Positions 291 to 64,000 of a stretch of DNA of 64,000 bases are shown here, in pieces (position 1 is the stretch's first letter; each line of letters starts with the position of its first letter). Under the pieces are notes generated by a model. That model was not told the origin of the DNA and searched no databases. It saw only the letters and a program-made list of their open reading frames with translations. The position numbers and the translations under genes are program-made. The DNA is taken from positions 10,044,001 through 10,108,000 of the forward strand of contig CP075496.1 of the NCBI GenBank assembly GCA_021613535.1, given 5' to 3'. The DNA is from Adineta vaga. Taxonomy: Eukaryota; Animalia; Rotifera.

Positions 291-2202
291 TACTGTCTGA
301 TTATCAATTCGAAATAAAGCTGTTTTTTTCTATTTGTTATATACTAGATACTGAGAATGAGCATGATTCCAATCGATTTGCTTCCTTTTAATTTATTAAG
401 TAATGTCTTTATTAGAAAATATTGCATCAGAATAAAGAAGTAAAAGTTCATTTTAACAATTTACTTTCCACAATGGGAGCGCACTGTTATTGCACAGAAG
501 CAATCAATTTTCATCTTGCACTTTTGTTTTACTCTACCTGCTCCTTCTTTTTATAATTAAATATATTGGTGTGTTTTCTTCAAGATGCTCTATTATCATT
601 CGATAAGAATTATTTCTAAAAAATATTCAAAGTACGTCAACAATATTCTATTTCATTGAATCATGAATATTTACGTCAGTTTGCATGTTTATACCATGGA
701 ATATGTGATTATAGTATTGATAGTTATGACAAATCAACTCGAAAATATAAGACCAAGCAATTTAATTATAATTTCTGTAGTTTACTTTTTCCGATCACAA
801 TTGCAAGTCAAATAAATTTATTAAGTATAACTATTTGCCTTTTAACCAAGATTATTTTTACGAAATGGTATTGATGTGAATGCTTTACGACAGACATCAT
901 TTGATTTGGCGATGAATAACGATACGAAACAAATACTTAAGAATAAAACAAAACTTAGTTTGAAATCGCTTGTATGCATTCGTTGATAATAATTATTAAT
1001 CTAATTAATGACAACAAGACTTTTAGAATAGATTTTAAAACAATGCTCGCATTTGTGACAAATTATAGTTATCATCGGCATGAATGACTGAAAAATAAAA
1101 GTTTATTAATCGAAAGATTCATATGAAATGCTATGAGACTACGACAAATCTATGCAACAAATTTTTTAATTTTTTAAGAAAAAGGAAACTTTACTATACC
1201 AAATACAATTATCTTTTTTAGCTTTGATAATATTTTAATGTCATCAGTAGATGGCTCTCCATAGCACTCATCTAGTTACACACATAACATTGACTGAATG
1301 TCCTTGATCCTTTTTTTGTATACGGCTACATCGTATGGTCGTGGTTGATCGATTTTCAATCGTTACTGTTTTTCTCTATCTGTAACGGCACCTTTCTTGT
1401 TTTTTTATTATTGTGATCTATCATACCTGTTATTTATTATGGTAATAAAACATCTTATTTACAGATATTATTATTGATCATTATTTGATATGTCATCGAA
1501 CGACAAGGAAGTATGTTAATAATTATTTGAAAGTTAATATGATCTTTTTTTACGATAGTATTGGACCTATAAAGTATGATTCTATTTTGATAGTAGAATA
1601 ATTTCCAAAACTGACGAGTTCACTAATGAAAGTAATGGTAATTATAGTTGTATCTTCTTCTACAAACATGCACGACTCTCAATTAGATAAAAATCTATAG
1701 AATAATATATGAGTGTTTTGAAGTTTACTATTAATTAGAATTACTTAGTTGGTAGTTTTTTTTTGAGAATCAGTTCTAGTCGATGAAGCAAAGTTTCGAA
1801 TTATTTCAGTCAATCGAAGTAATGTTTCATCATGTTTCTGAAAATTATCATTTTTGTAAGATGAAAAGACTCTTACTTAGTCTTTATAAAATTTCACCTA
1901 TCGTATAGTCAAAAATCATTATAGACTTCAAGGGTATCAAATGAAAATGATATTTAGAATCTTTTACGTTTCATTAGAGTGAACCGTTCCTATGAATTAA
2001 GAGAGAAAAAAACGAAGTTTAATTTTGGCAGTTGTTTGTTCTGGTTAGAGATACTAATGAAAATATCGACTTTTCTAAAAAAAATATCATCGATACAAAC
2101 TTCATCGAACTTATTTTTAGACATTCATCGACTTCAGCGTACGATTGCAATTCTTTTGAAACATTCGTCGTCGTTATATTATAGTTTGTATTACTTATAA
2201 AG

Positions 2203-3579
2203 ATGACTGAATGTGATAACTTACAAATTGGTAAAGAATTTCTTGCTAGTCAAAACTGGCCTTTCACCCTATGTAATCCTGGTTTCGATCGATGCTACTG
2301 TAATCGATGTTATCTATCAACTTACCGAGATGTTTATTCAATTGGTGGTCATCCATATGTCATTCCTCGAGGATGGACTCGTTTTGGTATACGCGTCGAC
2401 GAACCATTTGCTAAACATCATGATGTATGGAGAACATGGGCTAACTGTTATCATGGAACAAGTATTGAACGTGCTAAATCAATAGTTGAACATCGACAAT
2501 TACTTCTGCCGCGTGATATAACATTAGATGGTAAAACATTAGAAATACGTGCTGGTCATATTCCAGAAGAAATGTATTTATTTACAACACCAACGATAAG
2601 ATATGCTGCTCTTAGTTGTTATACTCAATCCTATATATTTACATCGTCGAAAACAAATAAACGGTATAAAATTAAAGTTGCACTTCAATGTAAACAAAAA
2701 CAAGATTCGTTTACTGTTCAAGGTGAAACTGTAGGTGCACGTCGACGACAAGTGACTATATGTCCACATATACCCAACGAGCAAATCGAATGGAAAACAC
2801 AACAACGTTCAGCTGTTATGCCATATGCATTGCTACTTCAGATAATTCCTGAAGAAGAAAAGAGTACTAAAATCCCAGAACATACTAAAGTTCCAGAGCA
2901 TACTAAACTCCCAGAGCATACTAAACTTCCAGAGCATACTAAAGTTCCAGAGCACACGAAAGTTCCAGAGCATACTAAACCCTCAGAGCACACGAAAGTT
3001 CTAGATCCTACTAAAAAAAAGTCTCGGCAAGTCACTTGTCCACAATGTTCACAAACAAATGTGTTAGATTATGGTAATTCCAAGGACGCGAATGTTATCA
3101 CTTGGGCTTGTAAAGCATGTAAGACAGTTTTTCGACAATTCAACTGTCCTGATTGTTCTGGTGCTAATATATGGAAAGATGCCGAATATAAAGAAGGAAG
3201 AGTTTATACATGTATACACAAAAATTGTAAGAAAAAATTCCAACAAATTAGCTGTCCGCATTGTGCTGGTGCTATAATGTGGAGCGATGTTGATTATAAA
3301 CAAGGAAAATTGTTTACTTGTCCATATGAAAATTGTAAGAAAACCTTTCAACAAGTGAATTGTCCACATTGTCATGGTTCGAATACATGGAATAATGGTA
3401 CTTATAAAGAAGGAAGAATCAATACTTGTGCATACAGTAATTGTAAGAAAACATTTCAACAGGTCAATTGCACACATTGTGCTCGATCTATCGTATGGAA
3501 AGATACGACTTATTCACTTGGAACACCTGCTATTTGTCCATACGAAGATTGTAAAAAAACATTTACAATAAATCCTTAA
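2203..3579 (+). CDS. NEURL4-type ADP-ribosyltransferase (PARP-like) domain + PEHTK repeat linker + tandem CxxC/Cx4C zinc-ribbon repeats; intronless
   Basis: CYCxxC, YVIPRGWTRFG, CYHGT, FTTPTIRYA, ALQCKQK, EQIEW and PYALL match the C-terminal ART-like domain of NEURL4. The C-terminal ~180 aa are ~36-aa repeats FQQ(V/I)xCPHC...W...YKxG...TCxxxNCKKxF. Confidence 0.8.
   Translation: MTECDNLQIGKEFLASQNWPFTLCNPGFDRCYCNRCYLSTYRDVYSIGGHPYVIPRGWTRFGIRVDEPFAKHHDVWRTWANCYHGTSIERAKSIVEHRQLLLPRDITLDGKTLEIRAGHIPEEMYLFTTPTIRYAALSCYTQSYIFTSSKTNKRYKIKVALQCKQKQDSFTVQGETVGARRRQVTICPHIPNEQIEWKTQQRSAVMPYALLLQIIPEEEKSTKIPEHTKVPEHTKLPEHTKLPEHTKVPEHTKVPEHTKPSEHTKVLDPTKKKSRQVTCPQCSQTNVLDYGNSKDANVITWACKACKTVFRQFNCPDCSGANIWKDAEYKEGRVYTCIHKNCKKKFQQISCPHCAGAIMWSDVDYKQGKLFTCPYENCKKTFQQVNCPHCHGSNTWNNGTYKEGRINTCAYSNCKKTFQQVNCTHCARSIVWKDTTYSLGTPAICPYEDCKKTFTINP
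2875..3018 (+). repeat. Coding 18-bp minisatellite (CCAGAGCATACTAAAGTT; PEHTK[V/L]) x7 plus one degenerate unit
   Basis: Directly visible tandem repeat. Confidence 0.95.
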
Positions 3580-5478: not shown

Positions 5479-5986
5479 ATACAACTACAGTGCAAGAATT
5501 ATTGGAAAAACTTTTATTTTTTGTTTCTGATGGTTAATTTAATGAAATTTTAAACGTTCTTCTAAATTATATTTCATCATTCATACTTTTAACTATAGTA
5601 ACATTGTCGATTTTTTTTAGTGAGAGAATATTTTTTAAATGATATTTTTATGAAGGACATTCTTGATTGTACTCTAAATTTCCATTTGGATTTTTACTCG
5701 TTTACATGCATTCATCATTATATTTTTCTTGTAATCTTCATCTAAGAATAGCTCATCAATCCTATTCAATTGTTTAGAAAACAACCATAATTACACGAAT
5801 GTATATGAAATAATATGTATTCATAAAAAGAAATTAGAGGATAATTGAATAGTGAAACTAAGACAGTATTCATTATCTCACCACTTTCACTATATATATA
5901 TATATATATATATACGCTTCTTTTTACTAGAATATCTCGTTCGTAAACGTGCTTGTGATATTCCAAAAACTATTTTAATTTACGGA

Positions 5987-6964
5987 ATGTCAAACACAAA
6001 TGTAACAATATTGTACATAGCTTCATTACAATACATATCAGGACAAATAACTCTGTACATGTCAATGATCATTCTCATTTCTGGTATAGTTGGTAATATA
6101 TTGAATTGTTTAGTATTTACACAACGATCTATTCGTTCAAGACCATGTGTTATCTGTTTCTTTCTGGCTAGTATATTGAATTTGATTGCGCTTGTTTCAG
6201 GTATTACACCACGTGCATTTCAAAGTTTCTTTATGATGCCAGATCAAACAGAAACAATACCCATGTTCTGTAAACTGCGATTATTTGTCGTTTACACAAC
6301 ACGTACAATTTCCTCATGGCTTCTTTCTCTCGCAGCTATCGATCGTTATTTAATTTCAAGTTCAAATATTAATCGACGTCAACTGAGTAATATTAAAAAT
6401 GCTTGCCTTTCAACATTCATTATTAGTATTCTATCGATTCTAATTTGGATTGAAGTTTTTTTTTGTTTCGACGCTAATCTTATTGGTACTCCTCAAAAAT
6501 GTTATGCAAAATCTGATGCATGTCGTGTATTCAATGATCTAGCACAATCACTTATTACAACAATTATTCCATCTTTAGTAATGCTCTTAGCCGGTTTATT
6601 TACCATATCTCATGTTCGAGATTCACAACGGACTGCACCATCTTTAGAAAATGTGAATAAAAATACTATTCGTCGAAATAGAAAAGATGAACGTAGTCTA
6701 ACTTTAATGTTAATAGCACAAGTTATTCTTCTGACAATATTCACATTTCCTCAAGCAGGACAAAAATTTTATCTAACTTACACATTCTATCAAATAAAAT
6801 CATCAACTCAACGAGCATTAGAAAGTTTACTTTTCAATTTTGTTCTACTTCTAACATATATTCCAAGTTGTATGCCGTTTTATTTATATACAATAACCGG
6901 TACTATATTTCGAAAAACTCTAATTACATTATTTAAAAAACTCCTGTTTTTAAACAACAACTAA
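5987..6964 (+). CDS. Orphan rhodopsin-like (class A) GPCR, intronless
   Basis: Seven hydrophobic segments, GNILN in TM1, AAIDRY, TFPQ in TM6, PFYLY..G..FR. The start MSNTNVT at 5987 carries an N-glycosylation sequon. Confidence 0.9.
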   Translation: MSNTNVTILYIASLQYISGQITLYMSMIILISGIVGNILNCLVFTQRSIRSRPCVICFFLASILNLIALVSGITPRAFQSFFMMPDQTETIPMFCKLRLFVVYTTRTISSWLLSLAAIDRYLISSSNINRRQLSNIKNACLSTFIISILSILIWIEVFFCFDANLIGTPQKCYAKSDACRVFNDLAQSLITTIIPSLVMLLAGLFTISHVRDSQRTAPSLENVNKNTIRRNRKDERSLTLMLIAQVILLTIFTFPQAGQKFYLTYTFYQIKSSTQRALESLLFNFVLLLTYIPSCMPFYLYTITGTIFRKTLITLFKKLLFLNNN

Positions 6965-8397: not shown

Positions 8398-9821
8398 ATG
8401 GATCTATCATCTAATTTATTGGCAGATACAGAAATATTCCAACCATGGCAATATATTTTTAATGAACTCATCCAAAGAAATCGTCAATTGAACGAAAGGA
8501 TTACTCAACTTGAACAACAAGCCAATCAACTCACTGAAGTACATGTACATATTAAAGATTTACAGACTACAAATCAACAATTGAAAATAGAAATCAATGA
8601 TCATATTCGACGATCTTCTGAAGATAGATATAAGCAAGATAATCAGATTTATATGAAACAATTGGAAGAAGCTATGATTTCTCTTAACAATTGTATTCTT
8701 CAATTAAATATTCGAGTCAATACCAATGAAGTTCAAATAGAAAAATTAACGAATGAAAATAAACAATTAAAAGAACAAGTTAATGTCTTACAAAAGTATC
8801 CTCAAGAAATGTCAGAACAATCAAACAATTTCCATTTGAATTCCAATGAATCTTTTACAGAATCATATGAACAACGAAAGACAGTTCTAGGATATGCAAT
8901 TGATAAGATAAAACATATTTTAGGTAAAAGAAAGAATTTAATAGTTTGATAACATCATTTTCTTGGTCATTTAGCTGAAAAAACAGGTGGATCTGCTGTT
9001 AAATCATGTATAAATAACGAGATCGATCAAATACAAGAAACAAAACAGAACATCAATGAAAAATCAGGTAAACTCAAATGCAAGAATGTAAAGAATGCAT
9101 TTCTCTCTCTGCTGAATGCTTTATCAAAACTTTTGTTTTTATTTTTTTAGAGATTAGTAAGGAGAGAAACACTACTTTTCTAGAGAACATACAACAGGAT
9201 AATCGTTTGTTGACTCTGGATTTAAGTGGACGAGAACTAGCAGATGAAGATATAAGAGATGTTGTTCAGGCGTTGCATATTGACAATCGATACACAGGTC
9301 TTGCCTTACATCATAACAAAATTACTTGCATTGGTGCTGCAATGCTAGCCGAAGCGTTAACTTCTAATAATATATTAACACAATTGTCGCTGTCAGTTAA
9401 TCACATAGATGATGATGGTGTTTATGCTTTGGTTAAAACTCTTTCCATTAAGAACCAAACTCTAACAGGATTATACCTTGGATATAATCGAATTACTGAT
9501 AACGGTGCGAAATCTCTCGCTCAAATGTTGCAAATAAATACATCTCTAACATATCTTCATCTATCTGGAAATAATATAAGTAACGAAGGAGTTCGTGTAT
9601 TATCATATGCAATAGAACATCATAATTCTACGATAGAATCTTTATCGTTGGATTCGAACAAGTTATTGACTGATCTAAGTGTAGAATTCCTTTTGCAGAT
9701 GATTAGATATCACGGTTCGTTGAAGAAACTTCATCTGGTCAATTGTAGTCTATCTCAAAAAGGCAAAGAACGGCTTCTCAAAGCACAACAATGTAAAGAA
9801 AATTTTCAAATATTTGTGTAA
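8398..9821 (+). CDS. Coiled-coil + RI-like (NLRC3-type) leucine-rich repeat protein, 3 exons
   Basis: Exons 8398-8923, 8975-9067 and 9151-9821 join in frame across GT-AG introns. Repeats LxxLxLxxNxIxDxGAxxLA; Q/E/N-rich heptad N-terminus. Confidence 0.85.
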
Positions 9822-10348: not shown

Positions 10349-13273
10349 ATGGCCACAAATACCTGTCAGATTGATCTTCAACTCGATGATAACATACGAC
10401 TCTGTCGTTTATGTCTGTGGACAAATTATGATGGATTTGGCTTTCAATTAAATGCTGCTTCTCCTCCACCACACTTTATATCGAGAATCGAATCCAATAG
10501 TCCCGCAGCAGCAAGTGGTCTCAAAGTACGTGATGTCATTCTTCATGTGAATAATCTAGACGTGACAGAAGCAGATTTCACGGCAGTGGAAACGGCTATA
10601 AAAGCATCCAAAAATATCAGCAATAGTGTAGACTTGTTGGTTATAAAGCAAAGCGTTTATAAACTTTCAAAGATGAAAAATATAATGTTAGATTGTATGC
10701 CAACTTCTACTATCATCACACCATCCACGATGCCTGCGAAGTTTCTTGGATTTTCAAGAAATACTCCTCGACTATGTCAGATGCGTTTAGGAAGCAATGA
10801 TTCAACATTTGGTATTGGAGTTGCTGATGGAGAAAACCATGTTGGCGCATATATTCGAACAATTTATGCAAATTCATTAGCTAGTCATACTGAATTACGT
10901 GAAAGCGATCGAATAATCGAAATCAATGGTCGGAATGTAGACAACGATTCAAGTGAATATATTGGGCAGAAATTGGAAAAAGCGAAAAACAAGGGTAAAT
11001 TAAAATTATTCGTTGCTGATGTCCAAACATATGAATATTATATGAAGAATAAGATGAAATTCAAAAGCAAAGATTATTCAACGAATCGAACAGCATTTCG
11101 AGTTGAAAGAAGTTTGCAGCAAAGTAAGAATTAAACTATATTTTTATTTCATCGTACAAATTTGTTGAACAAATTAAATCATGACGATATTTATTTTTAG
11201 ATACCCTTACAAAACATCACGTTACTGATCAGAAAACTACTCGTGAACCACCATCAACAGGCTATGTCACACAAGCTATTCAAAATAAGAGTGTTCGATC
11301 GACTCATCAAAGTGCACGTACCGATCAAATATCATTAAATGATTTTATAATCTCAGAGAACAGTAGACGTTCTACATCATATGATACTCCAAGTAACATC
11401 ATGTTTCAAAATATTACTGATTCTTTTTTGAGAAATGTCTCATACTTTCTTTACGACGCTTTATAGGTCTTAGTACGAGCTCATCGACTGATACTGTTAG
11501 TATCACGGCCAGCATTGTTAACGATAATGCTACTCAAAGATCGATTTCTATTGTTTCTGACTATTCTGATACGCTTTCATCTCGAAATACTAAGCATAGA
11601 GCAGTATGAAATATATCCCAAGAATTCTAAGAATTAATCTGTTATTTTATGTTCTCATTGTAGAGTTCTACTACGATCGAATTCCCATTTCGAAACATAC
11701 GTCCTTCATCAACAGTCAGATCAACTTCTTCACAAACTCACTACCGTACTACGCAAGATACATTCAAGTCAACTTCTAAACTTGCTACATCACGATACAG
11801 CTCAGTAGATAATATCAGAACAACAAGTCGTTCAACTTCATCAGCAGTAGTCTTACCAAAAATTAGTAAGTAATACACAATAATGCCATCAAGATGTGAT
11901 ATATAACGATTGCGATTTCTTGTTATAGAAGTAAATGTATGTAGTGGAACAATTCAAGTTTGCCAAGGAGATTTGACAGAAGAAAAGGTACGTTTGCTAG
12001 TTAATCAGGAACACATATTTCTGAATCGCTATGAAGACAAATACAGAATTTTAGGCGACTATTTAAAAATATTTCTAGTAGTTTCATGTTTTAAAAACTG
12101 TATTCTGATAGGTTGATGCAATTGTGGTTGCATCCACATCTGATCGTCTTACAGCTAATGTTCTTCGAAAGGCTGGGAAATCTGTTTCAGCAACATATGA
12201 ATCAGAAAAACAGAGAAAACCATCGAAAGCAATTTGTACTGCTGGTGGTCAATTGTCATGTGAAGAAATTTATTTTATTCCTTGTCCGAAAATGTCCAAA
12301 AATGCTGATAAATCGGTATTTAGAAATTTTATTGGTGATGCGATTGTTTTGGCAGATAACAATGAGGAAAACACGATTCAATCCATTGCATTTCCGGCTT
12401 TAGGTTGTGGACAATACGGTTGTAATCCTAGTTTTGTTGCTGAAACATTACTTATGGCAGTTGAATATGAATTGACACAAAGACCTTCTTGGAAATTAAA
12501 TGTTTGTTTTGTTGTACAACAACATCAACAGCATGTGTTCGATGCTTTTCAGAAGAAATTGACGGAATTAGAAACTAATCAATTGTCTGATGTAAAAAAT
12601 CGATTGTATATAAATGAAGATTACTTAACACTTAAATCATCAGAACCACATAGACGTCTTGTAGATCGGTCGAGTCTGGAATATACGGAAACTATTAATA
12701 AATTCTGGAATACTATGACTACAACATTATGTAAAGAAATTGTGAGTATTGAACTTATTTGGAATGAACGTTGGTACAAACAATATCAAATTCATCGAAA
12801 TGAATTTAGCCAAAGATTAAAGAATGATACAGAACAACAGTTGTTTCATGGATGTTCTGAAAAAGCGGCTAAAAATATTATAAAAGAATATTTCAATCGA
12901 AGTTATGCTGGAGTAAATGGTAAGTATGTTTCTTCAGATGTATTCAATGACATACTTTGACTATTAAAACTATACGATAGAGATATCGACTAGAAGAATA
13001 AATATTAATAAAAATCATTGTTTAGGTACACTTTATGGTCATGGTGTTTATTTTTCATCCAAAGCAAGTTATAGTCATAGTTATGCAAATCGAAATGCAA
13101 AGGGAGAACGATGTATGTTTTTGGCCCGAGTACTCATTGGTAAAACTACAATAGGCAATTCTTCTACAAAGATTTGTCCAATTGGCTATGATACTACAAC
13201 AGATGGATCTCATATATATGTCATTTATCATGATGCCCAATCCTTTGGTCAATATCTCATCACATACAAATAA
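10349..13273 (+). CDS. Tandem NHERF-like PDZ-PDZ + Ser/Thr/Arg linker + macro domain + PARP catalytic domain (mono-ART type), 7 exons
   Basis: Exons 10349-11123, 11201-11392, 11467-11603, 11664-11865, 11929-11987, 12112-12919 and 13026-13273 all join in phase. Motifs: YDGFGF/TFGIGV (PDZ), GDLTEEKVDAIV and SIAFPALGCGQYG (macro), LFHGC..FNRSYAG.NGTLYGHGVYFS..MFLARVL.G..YVIYHDAQ (PARP). Confidence 0.85.
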
Positions 13274-20587: not shown

Positions 20588-21402
20588 TTTGATTAAAGTT
20601 GATTGTTCCATATTGATGTATTCAATAATCTCTCAAATACTTTAATAAGTTTTCCTGTATTTTAATTCAAATAAAACATCAGAAGTTCTTGCAAAACAAT
20701 CACGTTTTTTTTCTTGTTAAATAGGTTTCTAGTCTAGAAACTTAACGTTCAATCATCGATTTCATATATGGAATGCAAATCTACAGAATTTTATTCAAAC
20801 AGTCAAATCCGACAATTCTCAATACAACGTTTTTGTAAGAAAGAAATGGCAACGTATAGACATTCACACACGAACACTATGAAGCATTAGAATAAATTAC
20901 GATATAAAATTCAGTTGTTTCCTCTTTTTATGAGAAGACGACATCATTAAGGAACGCTTTTATGTTTTATCTGTGTTTTTTTTAAAAGCATTTTTTATAA
21001 AAATAAAACGAATGACTTATGCCGTTATTAAAAGATTAAAGTATATTCTCTCATTTATCACGACCAACACAACGATAAGAAGAAGTATTCTCGTTATTCA
21101 TCCGAAGAGTAAAGTTTTTTTGTACGATCGATGAAAAGTATAGAACTACTACAATATCAATATTCATCAATTACATGTCAGCCTTTCTAATATTTTGAAA
21201 TCATTAATATTGTTAATAAGTAATATATAACTAGGTCACTTCAATCTTATAATTAAGTAAACTAAGAGCATATTATTAACACATGATTAACAATGTAAAA
21301 TAAATTGTTTTTTAACGTAATTTTTCTATATTTTATCTTCGTTATTAATGATAAATATATACGTTCACAGCATTCATAGTCTAATGAGAGAAAGTATTCA
21401 TA

Positions 21403-22473
21403 ATGGATAGAACGAATTCAACACCTACTACTGCTATCAATCCTACATTGTTGATCATACCTTTTCAAGTGAATATTTGGTTTGGTTTATTTATATTTAT
21501 TACTGGTAATATAAGTACAATTGGTAATTTTATTGTATTTACTTCTCGATTATTTCGGGCACGTGCTTATTCACTTTATTTAATAGCCGAAAGTATATGT
21601 TCACTTATATATTTTAATTATGTCCTAGTTACACGTATGATTCAAAAAGGTTATCAATTCCCAATTATTAATCGTTATGATCCTATTTGTAAAATACGCC
21701 AATTTCTTTCCATATATACTCATCAAGTTGCATTTACATTATTTGCATTAGCTACTATCGATCGAATTCTATCTACACATCGATCTATTGGTAAGTTATT
21801 CAATTTTGATTCTATTGATAATGTAATAGTTATTGTTCTCGTTTTAGTTTACCGACAATGGAGTAATCGTAGAACACTTGTTTATAAATTGATTCCTGCA
21901 GTTGTGATCATTTGGTTTGTATGTGTATCTCATCGATTGGTTTTGTATAGTAATATCAGTGGAAGTTGTGGCCCTCAACTGGGTATTTATGAAAAGTTCG
22001 ATAGCTATTTTGAAGTAATCATGTCTGGAATGGTGCCACCAATACTGTTAATACTACTTGGTTGTTTACTTTTACGAAATGTTCGTGATGTTGCTCGAAG
22101 ACGAATTGCACCTGCTGATGGTACTTTAACAACATCACAGTCGAACAATGCCAAGTTTTTATATATTCAACAAATTGATGCACAAATAGCAACAACATTA
22201 TTATTACAATCATTTGTCGCTATTCCTTCTTTTATACCTTTTGGTTTTCAAAATCTTTATACAAGTATTACTCGTAGTTGGTACAAATCACCCTTACAAT
22301 TAGCATATGAAGATATTATTATTGAAATTATACGTCTTCTTTCATATATATTCTATAGTACTAGCTTTTATATATCAGCTTGGTCAAGTCATGGTTTTCG
22401 TAAACAAGTTTGGGATTCATTGGGATTCGGACGAAAGAAACAAATAGTCAATCAAACAAATACATTCACTTAA
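21403..22473 (+). CDS. Orphan rhodopsin-like GPCR, one 57-nt stop-free in-frame intron (21791-21847)
   Basis: TGNIS..GN, ATIDRI, seven TM segments, SFYI....S.GFRK; GTAAGT...TTTTAG intron. Confidence 0.9.
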   Translation: MDRTNSTPTTAINPTLLIIPFQVNIWFGLFIFITGNISTIGNFIVFTSRLFRARAYSLYLIAESICSLIYFNYVLVTRMIQKGYQFPIINRYDPICKIRQFLSIYTHQVAFTLFALATIDRILSTHRSIGKLFNFDSIDNVIVIVLVLVYRQWSNRRTLVYKLIPAVVIIWFVCVSHRLVLYSNISGSCGPQLGIYEKFDSYFEVIMSGMVPPILLILLGCLLLRNVRDVARRRIAPADGTLTTSQSNNAKFLYIQQIDAQIATTLLLQSFVAIPSFIPFGFQNLYTSITRSWYKSPLQLAYEDIIIEIIRLLSYIFYSTSFYISAWSSHGFRKQVWDSLGFGRKKQIVNQTNTFT

Positions 22474-22715: not shown

Positions 22716-24150
22716 TCAATGTATAAACATCGAACCCCATTCATGAACAATTAATCCACTGTTTGATAAATGTTCATTGATGAAAACTTTTTGAATTTCA
22801 TTTTCCAATTCATCGAATGATGAAATTTCATTATCGTTATTTCCGAAACTAAAAACAAGAAAAATACGTAAGAATTGTTGAGGTAATGGTCGAATTGTTA
22901 ATTGAGCAGATTGAGAATAGATTTGAGAAGGAACGAAATGAAAGAGAATTTTCTGATTTTTATATTCAGGATCAACTTCATCCAATTGAGGAAGTATATA
23001 TGTTATCAAATCCTATAAAGAAAACGTCATCTTTTCATAAGATTAATGAAGTTTATACGTACATCACGATCTTCTGTAGATAAAGTCATTTTCTTTAGCA
23101 GATAGTTCAAAACTCGACTAAATTCATTTCGTGGAACGCATAGATTCTTCTGTTGAAGAAAACTCGGTATTGAACTAAGTGTCATTGCTTCCCAGAATAG
23201 CATTCGATGTTCAATTTCATTATCAATATGTGGATAAAATCGATTGATTAAATCATCTCGATTTTCTTTTTTGTCATCAAAAATAATCTTTCCATCAGGA
23301 TATACATTCAAATTAGTCCATTGTACAAAAGTTTTCTTATTCGTTATCGACGGATTTGGATACAGACTGGAAAACATCCATATATTTGGATCGAGTTCAA
23401 TTGATACATTCACATGTGGAATAATCTGATTAGTGGCTGATTTTAAACGAATAATTGGTTTACGAAGTCGTAATACAAGATGTAGACAACTTTCATTTAA
23501 GATACCATAATCTGTCAATGTTGAATTATCTTCAAGTTGTTTCCCACTGAAGATAAGACGTTGTTGATCAGTTGGAATACCTTCTTGGATTTGTATACGT
23601 TCTTTGATTATAGCGATAGTATCTGTTTTTAAACAGGTCTTAATATTTATCGTTTTACCAGTTAAAGTTTTAATGAAAATGATATCCATAGGTAATGATG
23701 AGGATGATTTCAATTGAATTAGAAAACGAGAATCATTAACTACATTAGACAATGTCTGAGAAAGATTAAGTGACAGTTGAGTATTTTCTTCCGATACCAA
23801 ATGATAATTATCAATATTTGATAAGTCAAGCAGATTCAATTCAGCCATTTGACAAAAAATATCACCAACAGTCACATGATTATTAACACTACGACACAAA
23901 CAAAAGAATAATAATTGAATTCAACATACAATTTATTCACAATAACTTACTAGATATCATAATCTTTGTTATTAAAAATTAATGTAATGATAAATAATCG
24001 AGGAATAGTCGATAGATCTTCACATGGATCAATATGTGCATTTCGAAGATCCATTGTACATTTGGAAAGTTTGTCCATATGAGTTTGAGCATCAATAGCT
24101 TTTTGATAACGTTTTATCAAATCGTCTATTGAATCATTCGTCAACGACAT
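22716..24150 (-). CDS. Ubiquitin-domain protein (no C-terminal GG) fused to a KPxIxL...FWEA...EWG domain of bacterial/fungal type, 3 exons
   Basis: Exons 24150-23951, 23888-23063 and 23012-22716 are in phase. [46 protein letters not shown] runs directly into [36 protein letters not shown]...LRIFLVF, VHEWG. Confidence 0.85.
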
Positions 24151-41308: not shown

Positions 41309-42340
41309 TCAATTGCCTTTTGGTCGAACCAAAATCGTTTGTCCACCACCGGCTGTTATTGTTATTGGACCAATCATTCGTCGATCTCGTTGATTCCAAC
41401 ATAATAATTTCGGCCATAGTTCTGGTAGACATCCAAGTGAAAAAAATGGTAATAATAAAATCAAATAACCAGTGAAATAGAAAAAATAGGGTTCAATACT
41501 CGCACCGAAATCATTCAAATCTGAATGAGTTTGTCGAACAAGAACAATTATTGATTGAGGAAGATTAATACATAATGAAAGTGTCGATATTGAAAGTAAT
41601 TGAATCGTCATTTTTCGATATTTTTTCCATTGAAAACGATTTTGAGAATAGTATTTCTTCCAAATTGTTCTTCCTAACAACGATATACTAAATACAGCTT
41701 CTAGAATATTACATAAAATTCCATTTAATAAATTATCCCATGTATTTAACCATGAAATTTCAAGATAACATGGCGATGAACCACATGCTAAATAATTAAA
41801 ATAGAAAATATTTTGACATGGTGGATATATAATTATGTTCGTATAAAACGTCAGAAGATAGATCGAAATAACAACTAAAGGTAAATAGTGTACATAGAAA
41901 ATTCGTCGTTTTGTACTAAGAAATTGTCGTCGATGAAAGACAAGTATATGTCTTTCAAATGAAGCCCACACAAGAAATACCGATGTGGCGCCATAAAATC
42001 CATAATCAATAAACCACCAAAGTAAACATAGATTAGGTGTTGATACCGATGTATTTCCATGACCTAATCGCCATCCATCAAGATATAATGAATTGTCAAT
42101 AACTAAGATAAAAAGACACAGAAAAAGTAAAACAATAATAACATGATTATGAATATGTTGACGTAAACGTCGGTCAAATATTAAATAATAGAGAAGAAAT
42201 ATTGTACAAAATAGGGATGGTATTTGTAAGATTAAATATGTCCAAAATTGAATTTGAGCTGATGGAATGAATATTTCATCTTCATCTTCATAATCGTAAT
42301 CATGCGAATTTGTATCATTATTTGTTCCATTATCGTTCAT
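41309..42340 (-). CDS. Orphan rhodopsin-like GPCR, intronless
   Basis: Seven TM segments, CLLWWF, WASFERH (DRY variant), KMT.QLL, NLP, LLPF. Confidence 0.9.
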   Translation of the reverse strand: MNDNGTNNDTNSHDYDYEDEDEIFIPSAQIQFWTYLILQIPSLFCTIFLLYYLIFDRRLRQHIHNHVIIVLLFLCLFILVIDNSLYLDGWRLGHGNTSVSTPNLCLLWWFIDYGFYGATSVFLVWASFERHILVFHRRQFLSTKRRIFYVHYLPLVVISIYLLTFYTNIIIYPPCQNIFYFNYLACGSSPCYLEISWLNTWDNLLNGILCNILEAVFSISLLGRTIWKKYYSQNRFQWKKYRKMTIQLLSISTLSLCINLPQSIIVLVRQTHSDLNDFGASIEPYFFYFTGYLILLLPFFSLGCLPELWPKLLCWNQRDRRMIGPITITAGGGQTILVRPKGN

Positions 42341-43461
42341 TGTGAATAAAATTCTTCGAATAGTTAACGCTGATTTATTTCGCTGATTAAATCGATTGGT
42401 TTAGGAATACAATACTAAATCAAAATGGAAATTAAAGAAAGGAAATCAAATTTCCGTTAAAGGAAACATATTGAAAAAATAATTTTGATGTACTCATGCT
42501 GATAGACATATCTTTAATATTCATGTCTAGTATGAGCAAAGAAAGAAAGTAACATACTCAAGTTCCAGAAAACAAAGATCTTTCAAGCTTCTCAAAGTAT
42601 TGAATTATACAAAGTTGATTTTATCAATCAATACGAGATTTTCTTTTTAAGTAAACACAAACTAAAACTAATCGGTATTATGTATTCACTCAATCAGAAA
42701 TATTGTCTGTAGAGTTCATCCTTAAGAAAGAAAAACTCAAGATTCGAACCTGTATTCAATTCATCTTATTAGTACATGTAAACTCGGAAAGAAAGTGCTT
42801 TCCTCAGCTTGATGGTAAGTCTGTAAATCTTTCTATTTTTATTGCCTATATATCTAATCTTGTAATTAGAAAATGTAACAAGGTAATGTCAGAAACAGAT
42901 AATTCAATAATCTACTGATCAGTTTTAATAGAAATTTCCTTCAAACAAATAACTGAAGTAGCTTTCTTTTTTCCTTTTATCATTTAAATTATGACACAAA
43001 ATATTAATATAATTTACTATCTTTATAAGTTTCAAGCTACTCAATCTGAACTTAATCTATTTTTTAAATTAAAGAAATATCATAGATGTTATTTTTATGA
43101 TAGAATGATTATCTTTTTTTATCAAAGGAAAAATAGTGTTTTTAAGAGAGTGAGTGAGTGAAAGGTAAAGAAATATAACCAAGGCTAGTTTGTAATCAAC
43201 TAAACAGCTTTGCATTTTCATTCTTATTGAAAAATTTGAAATTGACATATTGAAATCGTACGCACACTCCCTTTTTTTTAATGATATTTAATATATTCTT
43301 CTATTAAATCTTGCAATACTGATGGGGAAAAAAAACAGATTTAATCTTACAGAAGGAATGTAGAGCTAAATATCTGTCGAAAAATTTCCATTCTATGAAT
43401 CGAATATAAATAGATCATAAACTTTATCTATTCGAATGATTATCAATCCTTATTGAAAAGA

Positions 43462-54358: not shown

Positions 54359-56218
54359 ATGAAGAATAATCAAATTTATAATTGTGCGTTTCCAATAATT
54401 CATTTTAAAGATTTCCTGTCGCGTAAATCACTATGAAAGAAAATCTTTTGTCATTTATGAATCAATAAATATCACAAATAGTTTCATTTATTTACATAAT
54501 CAACTGAGCAACAAAATAAATTACATTTGTTGTTTTATTGACAATTGATAAATGATCATTTCTTTTCTATAATAATCGATTCTGTATCAATAGTGAAAAG
54601 ATTAATTGCATTTTGTTTTTTGCACTCATAGCGAACTGTAATACTGTAATACTTCGAATCTAACAAAGAAATTCATCAGATTCTGATTAGTCAACGTTGA
54701 ATATGAATATAACTTTACGTGAAATATTCGAAACTATAGTTGTTTTCTTCATTGGTATAACAGAAATATGTCACGAACTGATAGATTATTGTCCTATGAG
54801 ACTAATTTTCTTTGCAATTAATTACAAAACATTTGAAGATATTATTTTCGTTCGATCTGTTTGTATTTATCAGATAATTATTTCTTTACATTGGACTATC
54901 ATAAACTAATGTTGTTTACGTCAATAAAAACAAAAATAAAGAGAAAACAGATGTCATTGTTCTTTCCAATGATATGATTATATCATTCTCTCATTCATTG
55001 AAATGAGAATATGGTTGACAAAGAAATCATCAATACAATCAATCAAAGTAAGTAGAGTACTATCAATATTTTACACATTATGAATTCATAGAAGAAATGC
55101 TTTGTTTGTTCGTTATGATCGAACTATAATCATTCATCATGTCAAAGTCAAGTAAAACATCAATTAGATAAGTTTAATAATAATGTCGAACACAACTGAG
55201 TTGTCAAAAGTACATAGTCCCTATTCCTTCAAATTTCATGACATTTCTAGTCAAAATTACTGGATTAGATTATTGTTTATTTTGACAAGTCAACATGTCG
55301 AAAAAACTTCAGAGTTCCTGTTAGTTGACTTATTATATATAGATTTCTGTTCTTTCTACCCGACGATACCTACTAGCGAGTAGTCATTTATATCCAATGA
55401 TAATTAATGATGAAAACAGCGTGTAAGAATGTAATACATAAACTCATTAATCGTACAATTCTAGGTAAACATCAGTCATATATATATATATATAAAGAAT
55501 GCATGAGGTGTTTATATATTTATCCTTATGAATATAATCACATGTAAGAAATACGATTAACATTTGTACTAGAAGATGTTCTTAACTATAACTGTGATGG
55601 AAAACGTTTCAGCTTGAATCAGACAGATTATAGTATGATGTTATTTTTTGACGTGATAAGATTCTTTCGTTCAACAGAAAACAGTATCACGATTGTCAAA
55701 TGTCATGTCAACTGTCTTTTCTCTTCCAAGGAAATTAATTGAGACAATAAGAATCAACTATTGCTTCTCATATTGATAGTGTCTAATAAAAAAATACTTT
55801 TTTTTAAAGAAAAGACATCTATATAAAAAATATCAGCCGCGTAAATTGAGAACAAATCATTTGATATGTATATGAAATAAATACTTCTATTCTAAAGCAA
55901 AAGATTTTCTTATTCAAAGAAAACTGAGAAAGAAAGATTAGTATTGAAAGGATAATTAATAAATGGAAGAGATATATTTTATATGAAAGAATAACTAACA
56001 AGAACAAGAATGATTTTTCCCTCGAATCAATGCTAAGCGAGAGTTCTATGACGAAGAAAAAGAAGAAAAAAAAAACTTTTTATGTCTGTCAGTTTTCTAC
56101 GACATTCAATGTTGTTTGCTCTTTCTTTTTCTCATTTTCTAGTAGATATCTTATTTCCAATTTCTTTTAACACCTGTCACGCTTTCCATTATATTCTTTA
56201 CTGAAAGAATTTAGCAAT

Positions 56219-57840
56219 ATGAATACATCAACAGATTCGTCATTTTTCTTACCTGCATTATTACCAGGAACACTTATGGATTATAATTTTGAAAAAGATA
56301 TCGGAAAGAATATCACTGATATTTCGATTTCAACAGATTATCCATCTTTTTATCGAATTGTTATTCGTTTGTTAAGTTTCTATGCACTAATACTTGTTGT
56401 TATTGGTACATTAGGAAATCTTCTAACTATAATTATTCTTTGTCGAAGAAATTTAAGACGTTTTGTTACAATGAGATATTTAATTGCTGTTAGTGTATGT
56501 GATATTATCTCATTATATGGATGGAATTTAAATAATTTTTATAAATTTACGATTAGTTCAAATTATAAGAATTTAGAAGAAAAATCTCTTGTACATTGTC
56601 GAGTAATGTCTTATTTAACATTTGTTGGTTTACAATTATCAAGTTGGTGTTTAACAGCTGTTAGTTTAGGTAATTTTTATTATACATAATATTGCTTATA
56701 GAATATACATCCAATAATTCTATCATTAAAAGTAGGAAAAATAATTTGGCTAATTATAATTCAATAAGAATACTTTTATAGAAAGAGAAAAAAAAAGACG
56801 TCTCAGGAAGTATAAATTGAAGACATATAGAATCTTCTCACGTCTTAAATAATTCATTCATTATAGTCTTGCCCTTGCTTTGCATAATATCATATAAGAC
56901 ATGATTAATTCTTCATTTCATTCAGAATGAAATCTTAATTAAAACTATATCGAATGAAAAACAAAAATTGTTTTTTTGTTTGTTTACAGATCGTTGTTTG
57001 AGTCTTTATTTTCTAACATGGAAACATAAATATGGTAAATTATCACGAGCAAAATATCATATTGCAATTTTAACCGTGATTTGTTTACTTTTAAATTCAC
57101 ATATCTTATTTTTCAATGGTTATCGTACCGATCCACCCGATAATTCTATTCGATGTTATCGAACGCGTACGAATATTTTCTATATCTATCCTGAATGGGA
57201 ACGCGTTCACTTAGCTGTATATAATCTTTGTCCTTTCATGATTATGTTATCTTGTAATACATATATTATACATGTAACGATCCGTTCAGCACGTATTCGT
57301 ACAATAAAACGTAAGACAAATGCATCGGGAAAGAGTATATCATCAAGTTCTACTCGTCATCGACAATTATCTATCATGTTAATGATAGTTACGTTTGCAT
57401 TTGTAATTTTAACATTACCATCGTGTATTTATTTTGTTTTCTTTCGTCATCGAATGCCAAAAACAAATGATGTTCGTATTTTTCGTCATTTGGTACAAAT
57501 ATGTCTTGGTAGTGTACAATTTACGTCGCATGCAATAAATTTCTTCTTATATTGTTTTTCGGCAACAAATTTTCGTGAAGAATTACGTGATTTTCTACGT
57601 GAATTATGTTTACGTCGTTCATTCATATCCAAATTTCGACAATCGAAAACAACATCAATCAGATTGACAACAATAAATAGATCTAAACGAACAAAACAAC
57701 AATTGAATTCAAAATCAATATCAGATAATTCCCATATAGAACGTAATCATATTATAAAATCACCAGACATTCAAAAAGCATTAATAAAAATCGATTTGAA
57801 AGATGTCTACATTCGTGATATTGAAAGTACTTCAAATTGA
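56219..57840 (+). CDS. Rhodopsin-like (peptide-receptor-like) GPCR, one intron 56670-56989
   Basis: GTLGNLL, YL.A.SV.D, SSW.LTAVSL|DRC, LTLP, HAINFFLYC....FR. Confidence 0.92.
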
Positions 57841-58506: not shown

Positions 58507-60592
58507 CTAAGTACGAGGCATAGTGATCAAATGATTATAATTGATGTAGATTGTACCTGTGTGCTCTTCATCATTCGCTATTGTACTTAGACTATAAAGG
58601 ATGGACGGATCTAAATAAAATAAGCATTTTTAAATCTTTTTTTCATACGATAATATCGAGTTTATACCCATTTTTTCACTGATAAAATCAATGACAGCTT
58701 TGACAAAAATTGTATCCTTGTGAACATATTGATCGTAATTTTTTTCAAGTAAGCTAAGTGGAAAAAACTTTCCAATACCAAAAGCCAGATGCATGTTCGT
58801 TCTTGGACGTTCAAAGCAAGTTGATGACACATCAGGCCAAAACGAATTCGATAAATCATCATGTGATGGTGATTGATTTATTAAAGAAAATATAACTCTA
58901 TATTTAAATGGCCAATGAAGAATAGCATCATATGCATTACGCATAATCACTAAATATAATGATATGTGTGTATCACGTGAATATTCATCACCATTTAAAT
59001 ATAATCGTAAACACATTTTATAACCAGTTGGAGACGAATAGAATGGCGGTGAGTCTATTGATCTTTGGCGATCTGTTTTTGCATCCACTACAAATAAATG
59101 GCAAATAGTTCAATTGAAACTCAAATATTTCTCCACATACTTAACTTTTCTTGAAAGTCACTTATTTTCCAAATAAACGAACCATCAAAAGAAATGGGAT
59201 GTTTATCTGCTATTTGTTCTTTGACAAATAGTATTTCCTGAGTCAATAGGTTTTGAGTATCGATAATTGTCATAATGGCATTATTGTTTATCTGGATTGA
59301 TGCCATGAGTGAAGATGCTTGTTCATGGATAGCTTCAATACAATTCTGTAAATGAATGCATTCTTGTTGAAGTTGTTCTAGATTCTGTTGCACAAGATTG
59401 GCATGAGTATTTAAAATAAAAATTGTATTAACAAGTACGCGTATATCTAAGCTACGATTGCCTAAGGCTCGACTTGAATCTAATAAAGAATGATTCAATG
59501 AACGAATTGCGTTAAGATTCGGTTGACTGTAACCGTTCTGACTAGTCTAAAATCATATAATCATCATTTTGCAACTAAAATCATCAGTGAATATTTTCTT
59601 ACTGTGGCATTAAAGATGCAAAAGTGTCTGTCACCGGAATGATTTTGACTCATATGATTCTAAACAATCGAACTATTATTCAATAAAGTAGATAATTAAA
59701 ACGACGTACTTGATAGAGATTCAATGATCCTGTCCATTTACAAATTGAACAAGTTTTTAAGACTTGTCTCATCTCATTTAACAAATATCGATCTAATCGA
59801 ACCTAAATAAAAACATAATCTACTTCAAACATGAATCTCTGATAAACATACTTGATCTTTGGATATGACTGTTGAGCATGTTGCACAACTAAAAACAAAA
59901 AAATTAATGAAATTTTATGTTTCAAAAAAAAAATAACTAGCTAACATACGTGTTTAGAGCATTTATACAAGATTTACATTGCCAATGACTACAAGCAAGT
60001 TGATATGGCTCATGAAAAGCTAATTTACAACATGGGCATTTAAAACGTTGATCAAATACTTCAATATCTTGCTCTTCAACTCTGTGTTCAGATGCGGAAG
60101 CGGCGCTTTTATCCATTGTTACATGACGATCAGAAGTATCAGATTGTTTAGCAATAATACGTTGCATAGCGTTAGTTGAGATACTATTCACTGCCTCTCG
60201 ATCAATCGATTGTGAAGAATTAACAGCTAATCCCATTTGAGCATTTGTTAATTCTTTTTCCAAATTTCTTTCGAGCCGAAATTGTAATTTCTCAGCTTCT
60301 GAAGAATGACGACCTTTAGTTCGAATCAAGTCATTTGAATTTTGATAATATACATAAATGCGTCGAACTTGAATTAAACTGTATATCGGACTTTTTAAGA
60401 TTTCATTAAGAAATTCTGCAGGTATATGGATATCAAATGCATCTGTTTTGCTAATATTATTGAACACATAATTTATTAATTCAATAAATTGCATACAGTA
60501 ATTACATTTGTTATTAAAATTAGTTTCTTTTTCAAATTTGGCCACAATAAAAGAACTTTTTTTGTTTCACAATCACTACTTGCTGAGGCCAT
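58507..60592 (-). CDS. TRAF-family protein (divergent N-terminal domain + RING + Zn finger + coiled coil + MATH); possible 1-nt frameshift near the 5' end
   Basis: FKCPCC....EPYQLACSH.QC.SC; DGSFIWKISDF; SPPFYSSPTGYKMCLRLYLNGD...THISLY..MR..YDAIL.WPF; FGIGKF. The ATG at 60592 is out of frame with the ORF below 60545; the first in-frame ATG is at 60494. Confidence 0.85.
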
Positions 60593-63399: not shown

Positions 63400-64000
63400 C
63401 TACGAACATATCATGCTGGAGATATCATCATCATTTTCATCAACATGCTGTTGATCTTTTGCTAATTCACCGATATCAACTAATAATGGTGTAACTAAAT
63501 AGAAAAAAGATAAGAAATCAATCTTTTTCGTCCTTTTAATAGAAAATTCTTACTTGGTTCAATAGTCGATATGTCAAAATGAACTTTAATCAACATTGTA
63601 TTATTTTGTATAAAACGACTTTGATTTATTCGGAATAAATCGAGAGGATAAAATCTCGGTATTCCATATGCGTCATTCATATCCGATTGTGGACGATTAA
63701 AACATAACAGATTTTTATTTGGCCAACAAGAATGAACAATATGACGTTCTTCGTTAGAAATCATGGATTGATCCATTAATGTGAATGTAACTTTAAATTT
63801 AAATGGCCATTGAAGAGCAAGCAAACTCGCCACGTCTAATCACATAAAATAAAGATATATGTGTATTTCTTCCTGTTGCATCTCCATTCATATACAATCT
63901 AAAGCCAATTTTATAACCTTTGGGATGAATATAGAATTCAGGAGAATAAATCGATTCCGGTTTTCCAGATATAGCATCTCCTATCGAAGAAATAATGAGA
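63400..64000 (-). CDS. 3' part of a second TRAF-family gene (MATH domain), frameshifted at ~63820; continues beyond the window
   Basis: SIYSPEFY.HP.GYK...RLYMNGD...RNTHISLF...RRGEF / LQWPFKFKVTFTL.DQ..F.RP.SDMN.AYGIPRF. Confidence 0.85.

What the first reader, a model, noticed from the sequence alone, without database searches (positions are those of the whole stretch)
22716..24150. Non-cleavable ubiquitin fused to a bacterial/fungal KPxIxL-FWE-EWG domain
Seen: a near-canonical ubiquitin ends LHLVLRLR and runs straight into KPIIRL, so the di-Gly needed for conjugation and DUB cleavage is cleanly absent. The following domain matches an uncharacterised family I recall from bacteria (KPVIYLYP..YLFWE..FI.YWLP..P.PD..RVFM..VVEWGG) and from basidiomycete ubiquitin fusions (LRLRGGKPVIYL). 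Inference: horizontal acquisition, probably via fungi, then intron gain and GG loss, giving a permanent UBL that may act as a proteasome-targeting tag or DUB decoy.
Basis: partly seen in the sequence, partly recalled or inferred. Interest (0 to 1): 0.78.

Follow-up and report, generated by a model that had tools for sequence, protein, structure and literature searches.

The report
Uncleavable ubiquitin on unnamed dimer domain
A spliced bdelloid rotifer gene joins a ubiquitin-derived domain that lacks its cleavage glycines to an unnamed domain also found in bacteria, fungi and protists; the domain is predicted to pair with itself, so the protein likely displays permanent ubiquitin-like handles, and its function is untested.

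Summary
The gene is real: minus strand, three exons, 440 aa, matching Adineta vaga I4U23_020359. Spliced contigs from three studies cross the LRLR|KP junction without a gap, so the missing GG is not misassembly. Corrections: the ubiquitin is 66% identical (48 of 73 columns), not near-canonical, and a second degenerate beta-grasp domain lies upstream. The C-terminal domain has no Pfam, NCBIfam or PDB match. Its relatives (1205 clusters) include prokaryotic proteins with leaders or anchors, and ubiquitin fusions in basidiomycetes, brown algae, Anaeramoeba and Cantina; a giant-virus protein matches by fold. No named animal outside bdelloids was hit. GG loss is nested among GG-bearing bdelloid paralogues and is common elsewhere (41 of 101 non-rotifer fusions lack GG). 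Rotifer copies do not nest in fungi or bacteria, so the donor is unresolved. The domain folds confidently (pLDDT 93.6) and is predicted to homodimerise (0.83, best control 0.00). Best reading: a dimeric ubiquitin-domain adaptor. Function is untested.

The parts
22716..24150 (-). Whole gene, 3 exons, 440-aa protein (A. vaga I4U23_020359)
23951..24150 (-). Exon 1: N-terminal helical segment and start of the degenerate beta-grasp domain
23889..23950 (-). Intron 1, 62 nt, GT..AG
   Evidence: skipped in contigs of runs X11 and X13
23711..23997 (-). Degenerate ubiquitin-like (beta-grasp) domain, aa 52-126, interrupted by intron 1
   Evidence: AF2 strand/helix pattern, 10-residue block pLDDT 57-88; Foldseek aligns about 160 columns to di-ubiquitin and ISG15; Pfam YukD only E=0.15
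23462..23689 (-). Ubiquitin-derived domain, aa 134-209, ending LRLR without GG; L8, I44, H68, V70, R42, R72, R74 and K48 kept; K29 is R, K63 is N
22719..23461 (-). Unnamed KP...FWE...EWG domain, aa 210-440 (interrupted by intron 2); beta-sandwich with helical insert; predicted homodimer
23013..23062 (-). Intron 2, 50 nt, GT..AG; position shared by GG-less bdelloid relatives

Best explanation
The gene encodes a ubiquitin domain that lacks GG, fixed to an unnamed C-terminal domain predicted to form a homodimer, so the protein likely acts as a permanent ubiquitin-domain adaptor that shows ubiquitin-like surfaces to ubiquitin-binding proteins. Shown: gene structure, splicing, absence of GG, retention of the L8/I44/H68/V70 patch, and conservation across Adineta and Rotaria. 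Predicted: the fold and the two-fold dimer, in which the sheet face K210/I212/Y243/M296/F298/E300 packs on the partner's helix (about aa 338-353), with K210, the residue right after the ubiquitin tail, at the seam. Inferred: no E1 activation and no DUB release (established need for the C-terminal GG, own knowledge); docking on proteasome, p97 or UBA/UIM-type receptors through the I44 patch, with avidity from the dimer. The cargo or ligand of the C-terminal domain is not identified.
For: The junction is real. Orthologues of A. steineri, A. ricciae, R. sordida and R. socialis are 50-57 of 73 identical in the Ub domain and 152-167 of 230 in the C-domain, so the GG-less fusion has been kept across two genera. 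In 20 GG-less rotifer Ub domains, position 44 is I in 13, V in 4 and M in 3; K48 is kept in 17 and L8 in 13. Dimer: score 0.83 against best control 0.00, runs agree in at least 94% of contacts, pLDDT at least 86. The mark was reached by 21 of 30 microbial proteins solved as pairs and 0 of 23 solved as single chains; on eukaryotes by 17 of 29 (only 1 of 7 with no older relative) and 0 of 30. No solved relative was found by sequence or by fold, so a pass from memory is less likely. In 408 non-rotifer sequences, 6 of 20 scorable predicted inter-chain pairs rank in the top 2% of coupling scores (0.4 expected). A review defines UDPs as non-conjugated domains that act through complexes or adaptors (PMC11354881, passages).
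Against: No binding partner was tested. The coupling signal cannot tell inter- from intra-chain contacts, and the median rank of the 20 pairs is only 2685 of 17578. The I44 patch has decayed in one GG-less paralogue clade (P0016 group). Short prokaryotic members are only an N-terminal hydrophobic leader plus this domain, so the domain probably does more than dimerise. All 46 rotifer sequences scored have lost a tryptophan kept in 416 of 418 others (W348), and Y296 is M in 49 of 51, so the rotifer domain may have drifted in function.
Confidence: 0.45

Rival explanations
1. The ubiquitin domain is a passive relic or folding aid of an old fusion, and the function lies wholly in the C-terminal domain (a ligand-binding or catalytic site built from K210, E300, R391, E433 and W434). 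GG loss is then near-neutral.
For: GG is replaced in 41 of 101 non-rotifer Ub-bearing relatives. Prokaryotic members carry no ubiquitin and fuse the domain to dockerin, SH3 or BspA repeats. K210, R391, E433 and W434 are near-invariant (393 of 394, 418 of 424, 412 of 413, 410 of 412).
Against: The Ub domain is as conserved among orthologues as the C-domain and more than the N-terminal UBL. GG often persists where the UBL is no longer detected (16 cases).
Confidence: 0.25
2. The uncleavable ubiquitin is a built-in degron of the ubiquitin-fusion-degradation (UFD) type that sets a short half-life for the C-terminal domain.
For: Uncleavable N-terminal ubiquitin is a UFD signal ubiquitinated at K29 and K48 (PMC2173284, passages). 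K48 is kept in 17 of 20.
Against: The domain is internal, behind 133 residues. K29 is R in 20 of 20 GG-less rotifer domains (one ancestral event, not 20), and K29R partly stabilises UbG76V-GFP.
Confidence: 0.12
3. The protein is a DUB decoy or sink: the intact LRLR tail and I44 patch occupy a deubiquitinase S1 site without turnover.
For: R72, L73 and R74 are kept in most GG-less domains. Tandem UBL-Ub aligns to linear di-ubiquitin.
Against: The tail runs straight into the first strand of a folded domain (model strand 211-217) that lies at the predicted dimer seam, which would likely block the DUB cleft. There is no direct evidence.
Confidence: 0.1
4. The C-terminal domain is an intramolecular isopeptide domain (CLIPPER or Cna-like), crosslinked through K210 on the first strand.
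For: Invariant Lys on strand 1; the best VIA match is CLIPPER 9ifr, with pilin and adhesin domains further down; prokaryotic members look exported.
Against: Z is only 4.5, below the level the tool calls meaningful. Known bonds are Lys-Asn or Lys-Asp (PMC12617251, passages), and no conserved Asn or Asp lies on the last two strands. K210 is on the predicted outer interface face.
Confidence: 0.04

Closest known systems
Ubiquitin-domain proteins (UDPs, integral UBLs such as Rad23; names from own knowledge, class definition from PMC11354881 passages)
   Same: Ubiquitin-fold domain that cannot be conjugated, fused to another domain, with the hydrophobic patch kept
   Different: Much closer to ubiquitin (66%); two tandem beta-grasp domains; the partner domain is an unnamed cross-kingdom family; TIGR00601 Rad23 score 35 against cut-off 207
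Patchy ubiquitin fusions to bacterial-type domains: ubiquitin-IMP and ubiquitin-NiSOD (Sibbald et al. 2019, PMC6332867; passages and part 1 of section 6 read)
   Same: Ubiquitin fused to a domain with bacterial homologues, patchy across eukaryotes, common in fungi, donor unresolved
   Different: In ubiquitin-IMP the ubiquitin is N-terminal, C-terminal, split or internal; here it was scored only directly upstream of the domain. Their alignment was not readable as text, so identity with the IMP family is not formally excluded.
UBB+1 and UbG76V UFD substrates (PMC2173284)
   Same: Uncleavable ubiquitin with a C-terminal extension
   Different: Internal position, K29 replaced by R, long evolutionary conservation
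Basidiomycete 'ubiquitin family protein' fusions (e.g. Moniliophthora, Coprinopsis, Armillaria)
   Same: Same C-terminal domain directly after a ubiquitin or UBL; often GG, often not
   Different: Separate clade; extra N-terminal domain does not match the rotifer one; W348 and Y296 kept

Membership tests
Conjugatable ubiquitin / cleavable ubiquitin precursor | C-terminal LRGG exposed by DUB cleavage | tested here: not met
   LRLR|KP in genome and spliced contigs
Conjugatable ubiquitin / cleavable ubiquitin precursor | Near-identity to canonical ubiquitin | tested here: not met
   48 of 73 columns, 1-aa insertion
Ubiquitin-domain proteins (UDP) | Ubiquitin-fold domain within a larger protein, no conjugation motif | tested here: met
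   PF00240 E=1.9e-24 at aa 137-209; no GG
Ubiquitin-domain proteins (UDP) | Non-covalent binding to ubiquitin receptors or adaptors | not testable with these tools
   Patch residues kept; binding not measured
UFD substrates | N-terminal uncleavable ubiquitin with K29 and K48 | tested here: not met
   Internal domain; K29 is R, K48 kept
KP...FWE...EWG family (unnamed) | Profile similarity and motifs K-P, W, FWE, R, EWG | tested here: met
   1205 representatives at E<=0.001, best non-rotifer-like hit E=1.1e-22; motifs
KP...FWE...EWG family (unnamed) | Trp of the FITYW helix (416 of 418 non-rotifer members) | tested here: not met
   I348 here; 0 of 46 rotifer sequences have W
Intramolecular isopeptide domains (CLIPPER/CnaA/CnaB) | Lys on first strand, Asn or Asp on last or penultimate strand, catalytic Asp or Glu | tested here: not met
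   Lys present; no conserved Asn or Asp on those strands; definition
Intramolecular isopeptide domains (CLIPPER/CnaA/CnaB) | Cna-like beta-sandwich fold | tested here: inconclusive
   VIA Z 4.5, rmsd 2.9, 92 aligned
Bdelloid horizontally acquired genes | Homologues in non-metazoans, none in other animals, on a rotifer chromosome | tested here: met
   (240 listed of 344 hits in the last two; many unnamed); contig of 15.2 Mb; spliceosomal introns
Bdelloid horizontally acquired genes | Nesting within a donor clade | tested here: inconclusive
   Backbone unresolved; AU p=0.264 for rotifer+fungi
Ubiquitin-IMP fusions (Sibbald 2019) | Sequence homology to the IMP domain | not testable with these tools

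The most novel reading that the evidence does not exclude
An undescribed, widespread homodimeric beta-sandwich/helical module, with no solved fold match, that bacteria and archaea export to their surface and that eukaryotes and giant viruses repeatedly wire to ubiquitin. The di-glycine then acts as an evolutionary switch between a DUB-released form and a permanent di-ubiquitin-mimicking adaptor, as in the main bdelloid clade. Tandem expansions in mushrooms and brown algae would fit a role in defence or conflict.
Probability: 0.25. Interest if true: 0.75.

Novelty: new variant of a known kind. Interest (0 to 1): 0.5.

Why it matters
Uncleavable ubiquitin fusions and foreign genes in bdelloids are both known kinds, and GG loss is frequent in this family, so the junction alone is modest. 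The larger value is the partner domain: more than 1200 sequence clusters across bacteria, archaea and several eukaryotic groups, no Pfam or NCBIfam model, no significant solved fold, a confident model and a strong homodimer prediction. Bdelloids hold GG-bearing and GG-less paralogues side by side, which gives a natural pair for testing how ubiquitin precursors turn into permanent ubiquitin-like domains.

Tried and rejected
Misassembly of GG: rejected. Contamination: rejected (introns, chromosome-scale contig, orthologues in two genera). Pfam, NCBIfam and PDB sequence searches of the C-domain found nothing significant (one search was swamped by ubiquitin). Foldseek on PDB: 0 matches at E<=0.001. 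VIA wide: 0 of 48161 chains at Z>=5, which does not show that the fold is new. ESM Atlas: all scores under 0.9, leads only. IMG/VR: three scans found no confirmed locus, so viral presence rests on one BFVD match. Prokaryotic gene neighbourhoods: no neighbour family in more than 3 of 52 loci. DUF2330 resemblance (recalled) was not testable: no hit in 5 genomes or 14 controls. Rotifer versus fungal N-terminal domains, and rotifer N-UBL versus its own Ub: no hhalign match. No run was on record as RNA. Expression tables: the gene number was not found in the held supplement of PMC10809525; the PMC12220480 supplement was cut when stored and gave no match, so unseen supplements may hold expression or HGT calls for this gene. 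Paper searches with no description of the family: (listing only). Earlier scan findings: none. No whole genome was held, so paralogues within this genome were not counted; none lies in the window.

Full report
Gene and observation. The window is about 30% GC, with short introns. The feature is a minus-strand gene with exons 24150-23951, 23888-23063 and 23012-22716, encoding 440 aa. A homologue search returned a 440-aa protein named A. vaga I4U23_020359, 100% identical over the 136 residues searched, on a 15.2-Mb contig. Four of 24 listed runs were laid on the region. Contigs of three runs from three studies skip the 50-nt intron, two also skip the 62-nt intron, and all three cross LRLR|KP with no gap. 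The fourth, DNA-like run shows no joint. The missing GG is therefore real and the gene is spliced.

Anatomy. Residues 134-209 match ubiquitin (PF00240 E=1.9e-24), but at 48 identities in 73 columns with one inserted residue (counted), so the domain is ubiquitin-derived, not near-canonical. L8, R42, I44, K48, H68, V70, R72 and R74 are kept; K29 is R, K33 is Q and K63 is N. Residues 52-126 form a second beta-grasp: the AlphaFold2 model has that strand and helix order, and Foldseek aligns about 160 columns to di-ubiquitin and ISG15. Residues 210-440 match no Pfam, NCBIfam or PDB sequence.

The family. A profile of seven rotifer C-domains finds 1205 representatives at E<=0.001 among 1.84 billion; 150 were listed. 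Named eukaryotic relatives are Cantina, Ectocarpus and Anaeramoeba, Nemacystus and many basidiomycetes, usually with a ubiquitin or UBL directly upstream and sometimes a RING or U-box further upstream. One Terrestrivirus protein matches by fold (E=5.5e-10, TM 0.61). A bacterial-like member retrieved 52 loci from Bacillota, Patescibacteria, other bacteria and archaea. There the domain is C-terminal, behind hydrophobic leaders read by eye, and in 10 of 28 proteins scanned it is fused to dockerin, SH3 or BspA repeats. No neighbour family recurs in more than 3 loci. No named animal other than bdelloids appears; 240 of the 344 hits of the last two were listed, many are unnamed, and the search depends on shared words.

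The GG junction. Bdelloids hold both states: the orthologue clade of Adineta and Rotaria has a clean two-residue deletion, while divergent paralogues keep GG. In distinct fetched proteins with a detected ubiquitin upstream, GG stands in 14 of 42 rotifer-like and 60 of 101 other sequences (groups assigned by motif, near-copies not collapsed). The GG-less rotifer clade sits among GG-bearing paralogues (0.997; 99; only 86/51 in the careful tree when the divergent P0016 is included, 97/97 without it). Intron 2 is present in the GG-less loci L054, L057 and L061 and absent in the GG-bearing loci L055 and L062/L064.

Origin. In a 46-row tree (LG+C20; rows chosen by me from about 300; group labels partly inferred from motifs and tree position), rotifers (100/99), fungi (100/100) and prokaryotes (97/84) each form one side of a branch, and the backbone is open. 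Rotifers are not nested in fungi. A sister relation to fungi is not rejected (p-AU 0.264). The extra N-terminal domains of rotifers and fungi do not match. The ubiquitin fusion most likely predates entry into bdelloids and came from a eukaryotic or viral donor that is not identified (inference). Old foreign genes shared by Adineta and Rotaria are common (PMC4632278, passages).

Structure. With 130 aligned sequences the C-domain folds at pLDDT 93.6 and pTM 0.88, as a beta-rich domain with a helical insert. Foldseek finds no PDB match. VIA finds only Z<=4.5 matches to Ig-like sandwiches such as CLIPPER, cohesins and macroglobulin domains, which may reflect only a common arrangement. The isopeptide reading fails on the missing Asn or Asp. 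Two copies of the domain fold as a symmetric dimer with score 0.83 against a best control of 0.00; runs agree in at least 94% of contacts and pLDDT is at least 86. The mark was reached by 21 of 30 microbial pairs and 0 of 23 single chains, and by 17 of 29 eukaryotic pairs (1 of 7 without an older relative) and 0 of 30 single chains. The interface uses conserved residues (K210, I212, Y243, M296, F298, E300, T346, Y347). Of the 25 contact pairs listed I dropped 2 self-pairs, and 3 lay outside match columns. Six of the remaining 20 rank in the top 2% of coupling scores among 408 non-rotifer sequences, though the median rank is 2685 of 17578 and intra-chain contact cannot be excluded. Rotifers have lost W348 (0 of 46, against 416 of 418 elsewhere) and mostly Y296.

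Mechanism. Most likely a dimeric ubiquitin-domain adaptor (0.45): it cannot be conjugated or released, keeps the I44 patch, and would present two Ub and two UBL domains from the dimer. Rivals are a passive ubiquitin with the function in the C-domain (0.25), a UFD-type degron (0.12; weakened by the internal position and K29R, PMC2173284 passages), a DUB decoy (0.10) and an isopeptide domain (0.04). Neighbouring paralogues in Amanita phalloides (three genes on one contig) and Nemacystus (g3689-g3691) hint at a defence or conflict role; this is inference only.

Comparison and verdict. It works like a UDP (PMC11354881, passages) and resembles the patchy ubiquitin-IMP and ubiquitin-NiSOD fusions (PMC6332867, passages and part 1 of section 6), whose sequences I could not see. 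Searches found no description of this family in the held library, which lacks most subscription papers. PMC10809525 (passages) and PMC5289972 (passages) were read without bearing on the gene. Verdict: a real new variant of a known kind; the unnamed domain, more than the missing GG, is the part worth following. Interest 0.5.

Noticed in passing
window 2185-3576 (+): 464-aa stop-free frame with a YHGT motif (resembles ADP-ribosyltransferase-fold proteins, recalled), TKxPEH repeats and C-terminal CxxC repeats; no Pfam match at E<=0.001.
   Followed up: partly
window 12112-12957 (+): Macro domain (E=2.8e-08) followed by the start of a PARP catalytic domain (E=0.00026).
   Followed up: partly
window 9072-9818 (+): Leucine-rich-repeat protein (LRR_6, E=4.3e-19).
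   Followed up: partly
window 21388-22473 (+): Seven-transmembrane-like frame ending about 240 bp from the studied gene's stop, tail to tail; no Pfam match at E<=0.001. Similar frames lie at 5849-6961 (+), 41312-42400 (-) and 56171-57837 (+).
   Followed up: partly
window 58633-60566 (-) and 63498-63839 (-): Frames that read like TRAF/MATH-domain proteins (recalled resemblance); not scanned.
   Followed up: no
L026:4419-8708 and L025, L041: Two or three genes carrying the studied domain lie in tandem in these Bacillota loci; dockerin was scored in L025:1161-2327.
   Followed up: partly
proteins P0044, P0094, P0129 (unnamed sources): Non-rotifer ubiquitin fusions with the same clean two-residue loss at the junction, away from rotifers in the tree: likely independent GG deletions.
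   Followed up: partly
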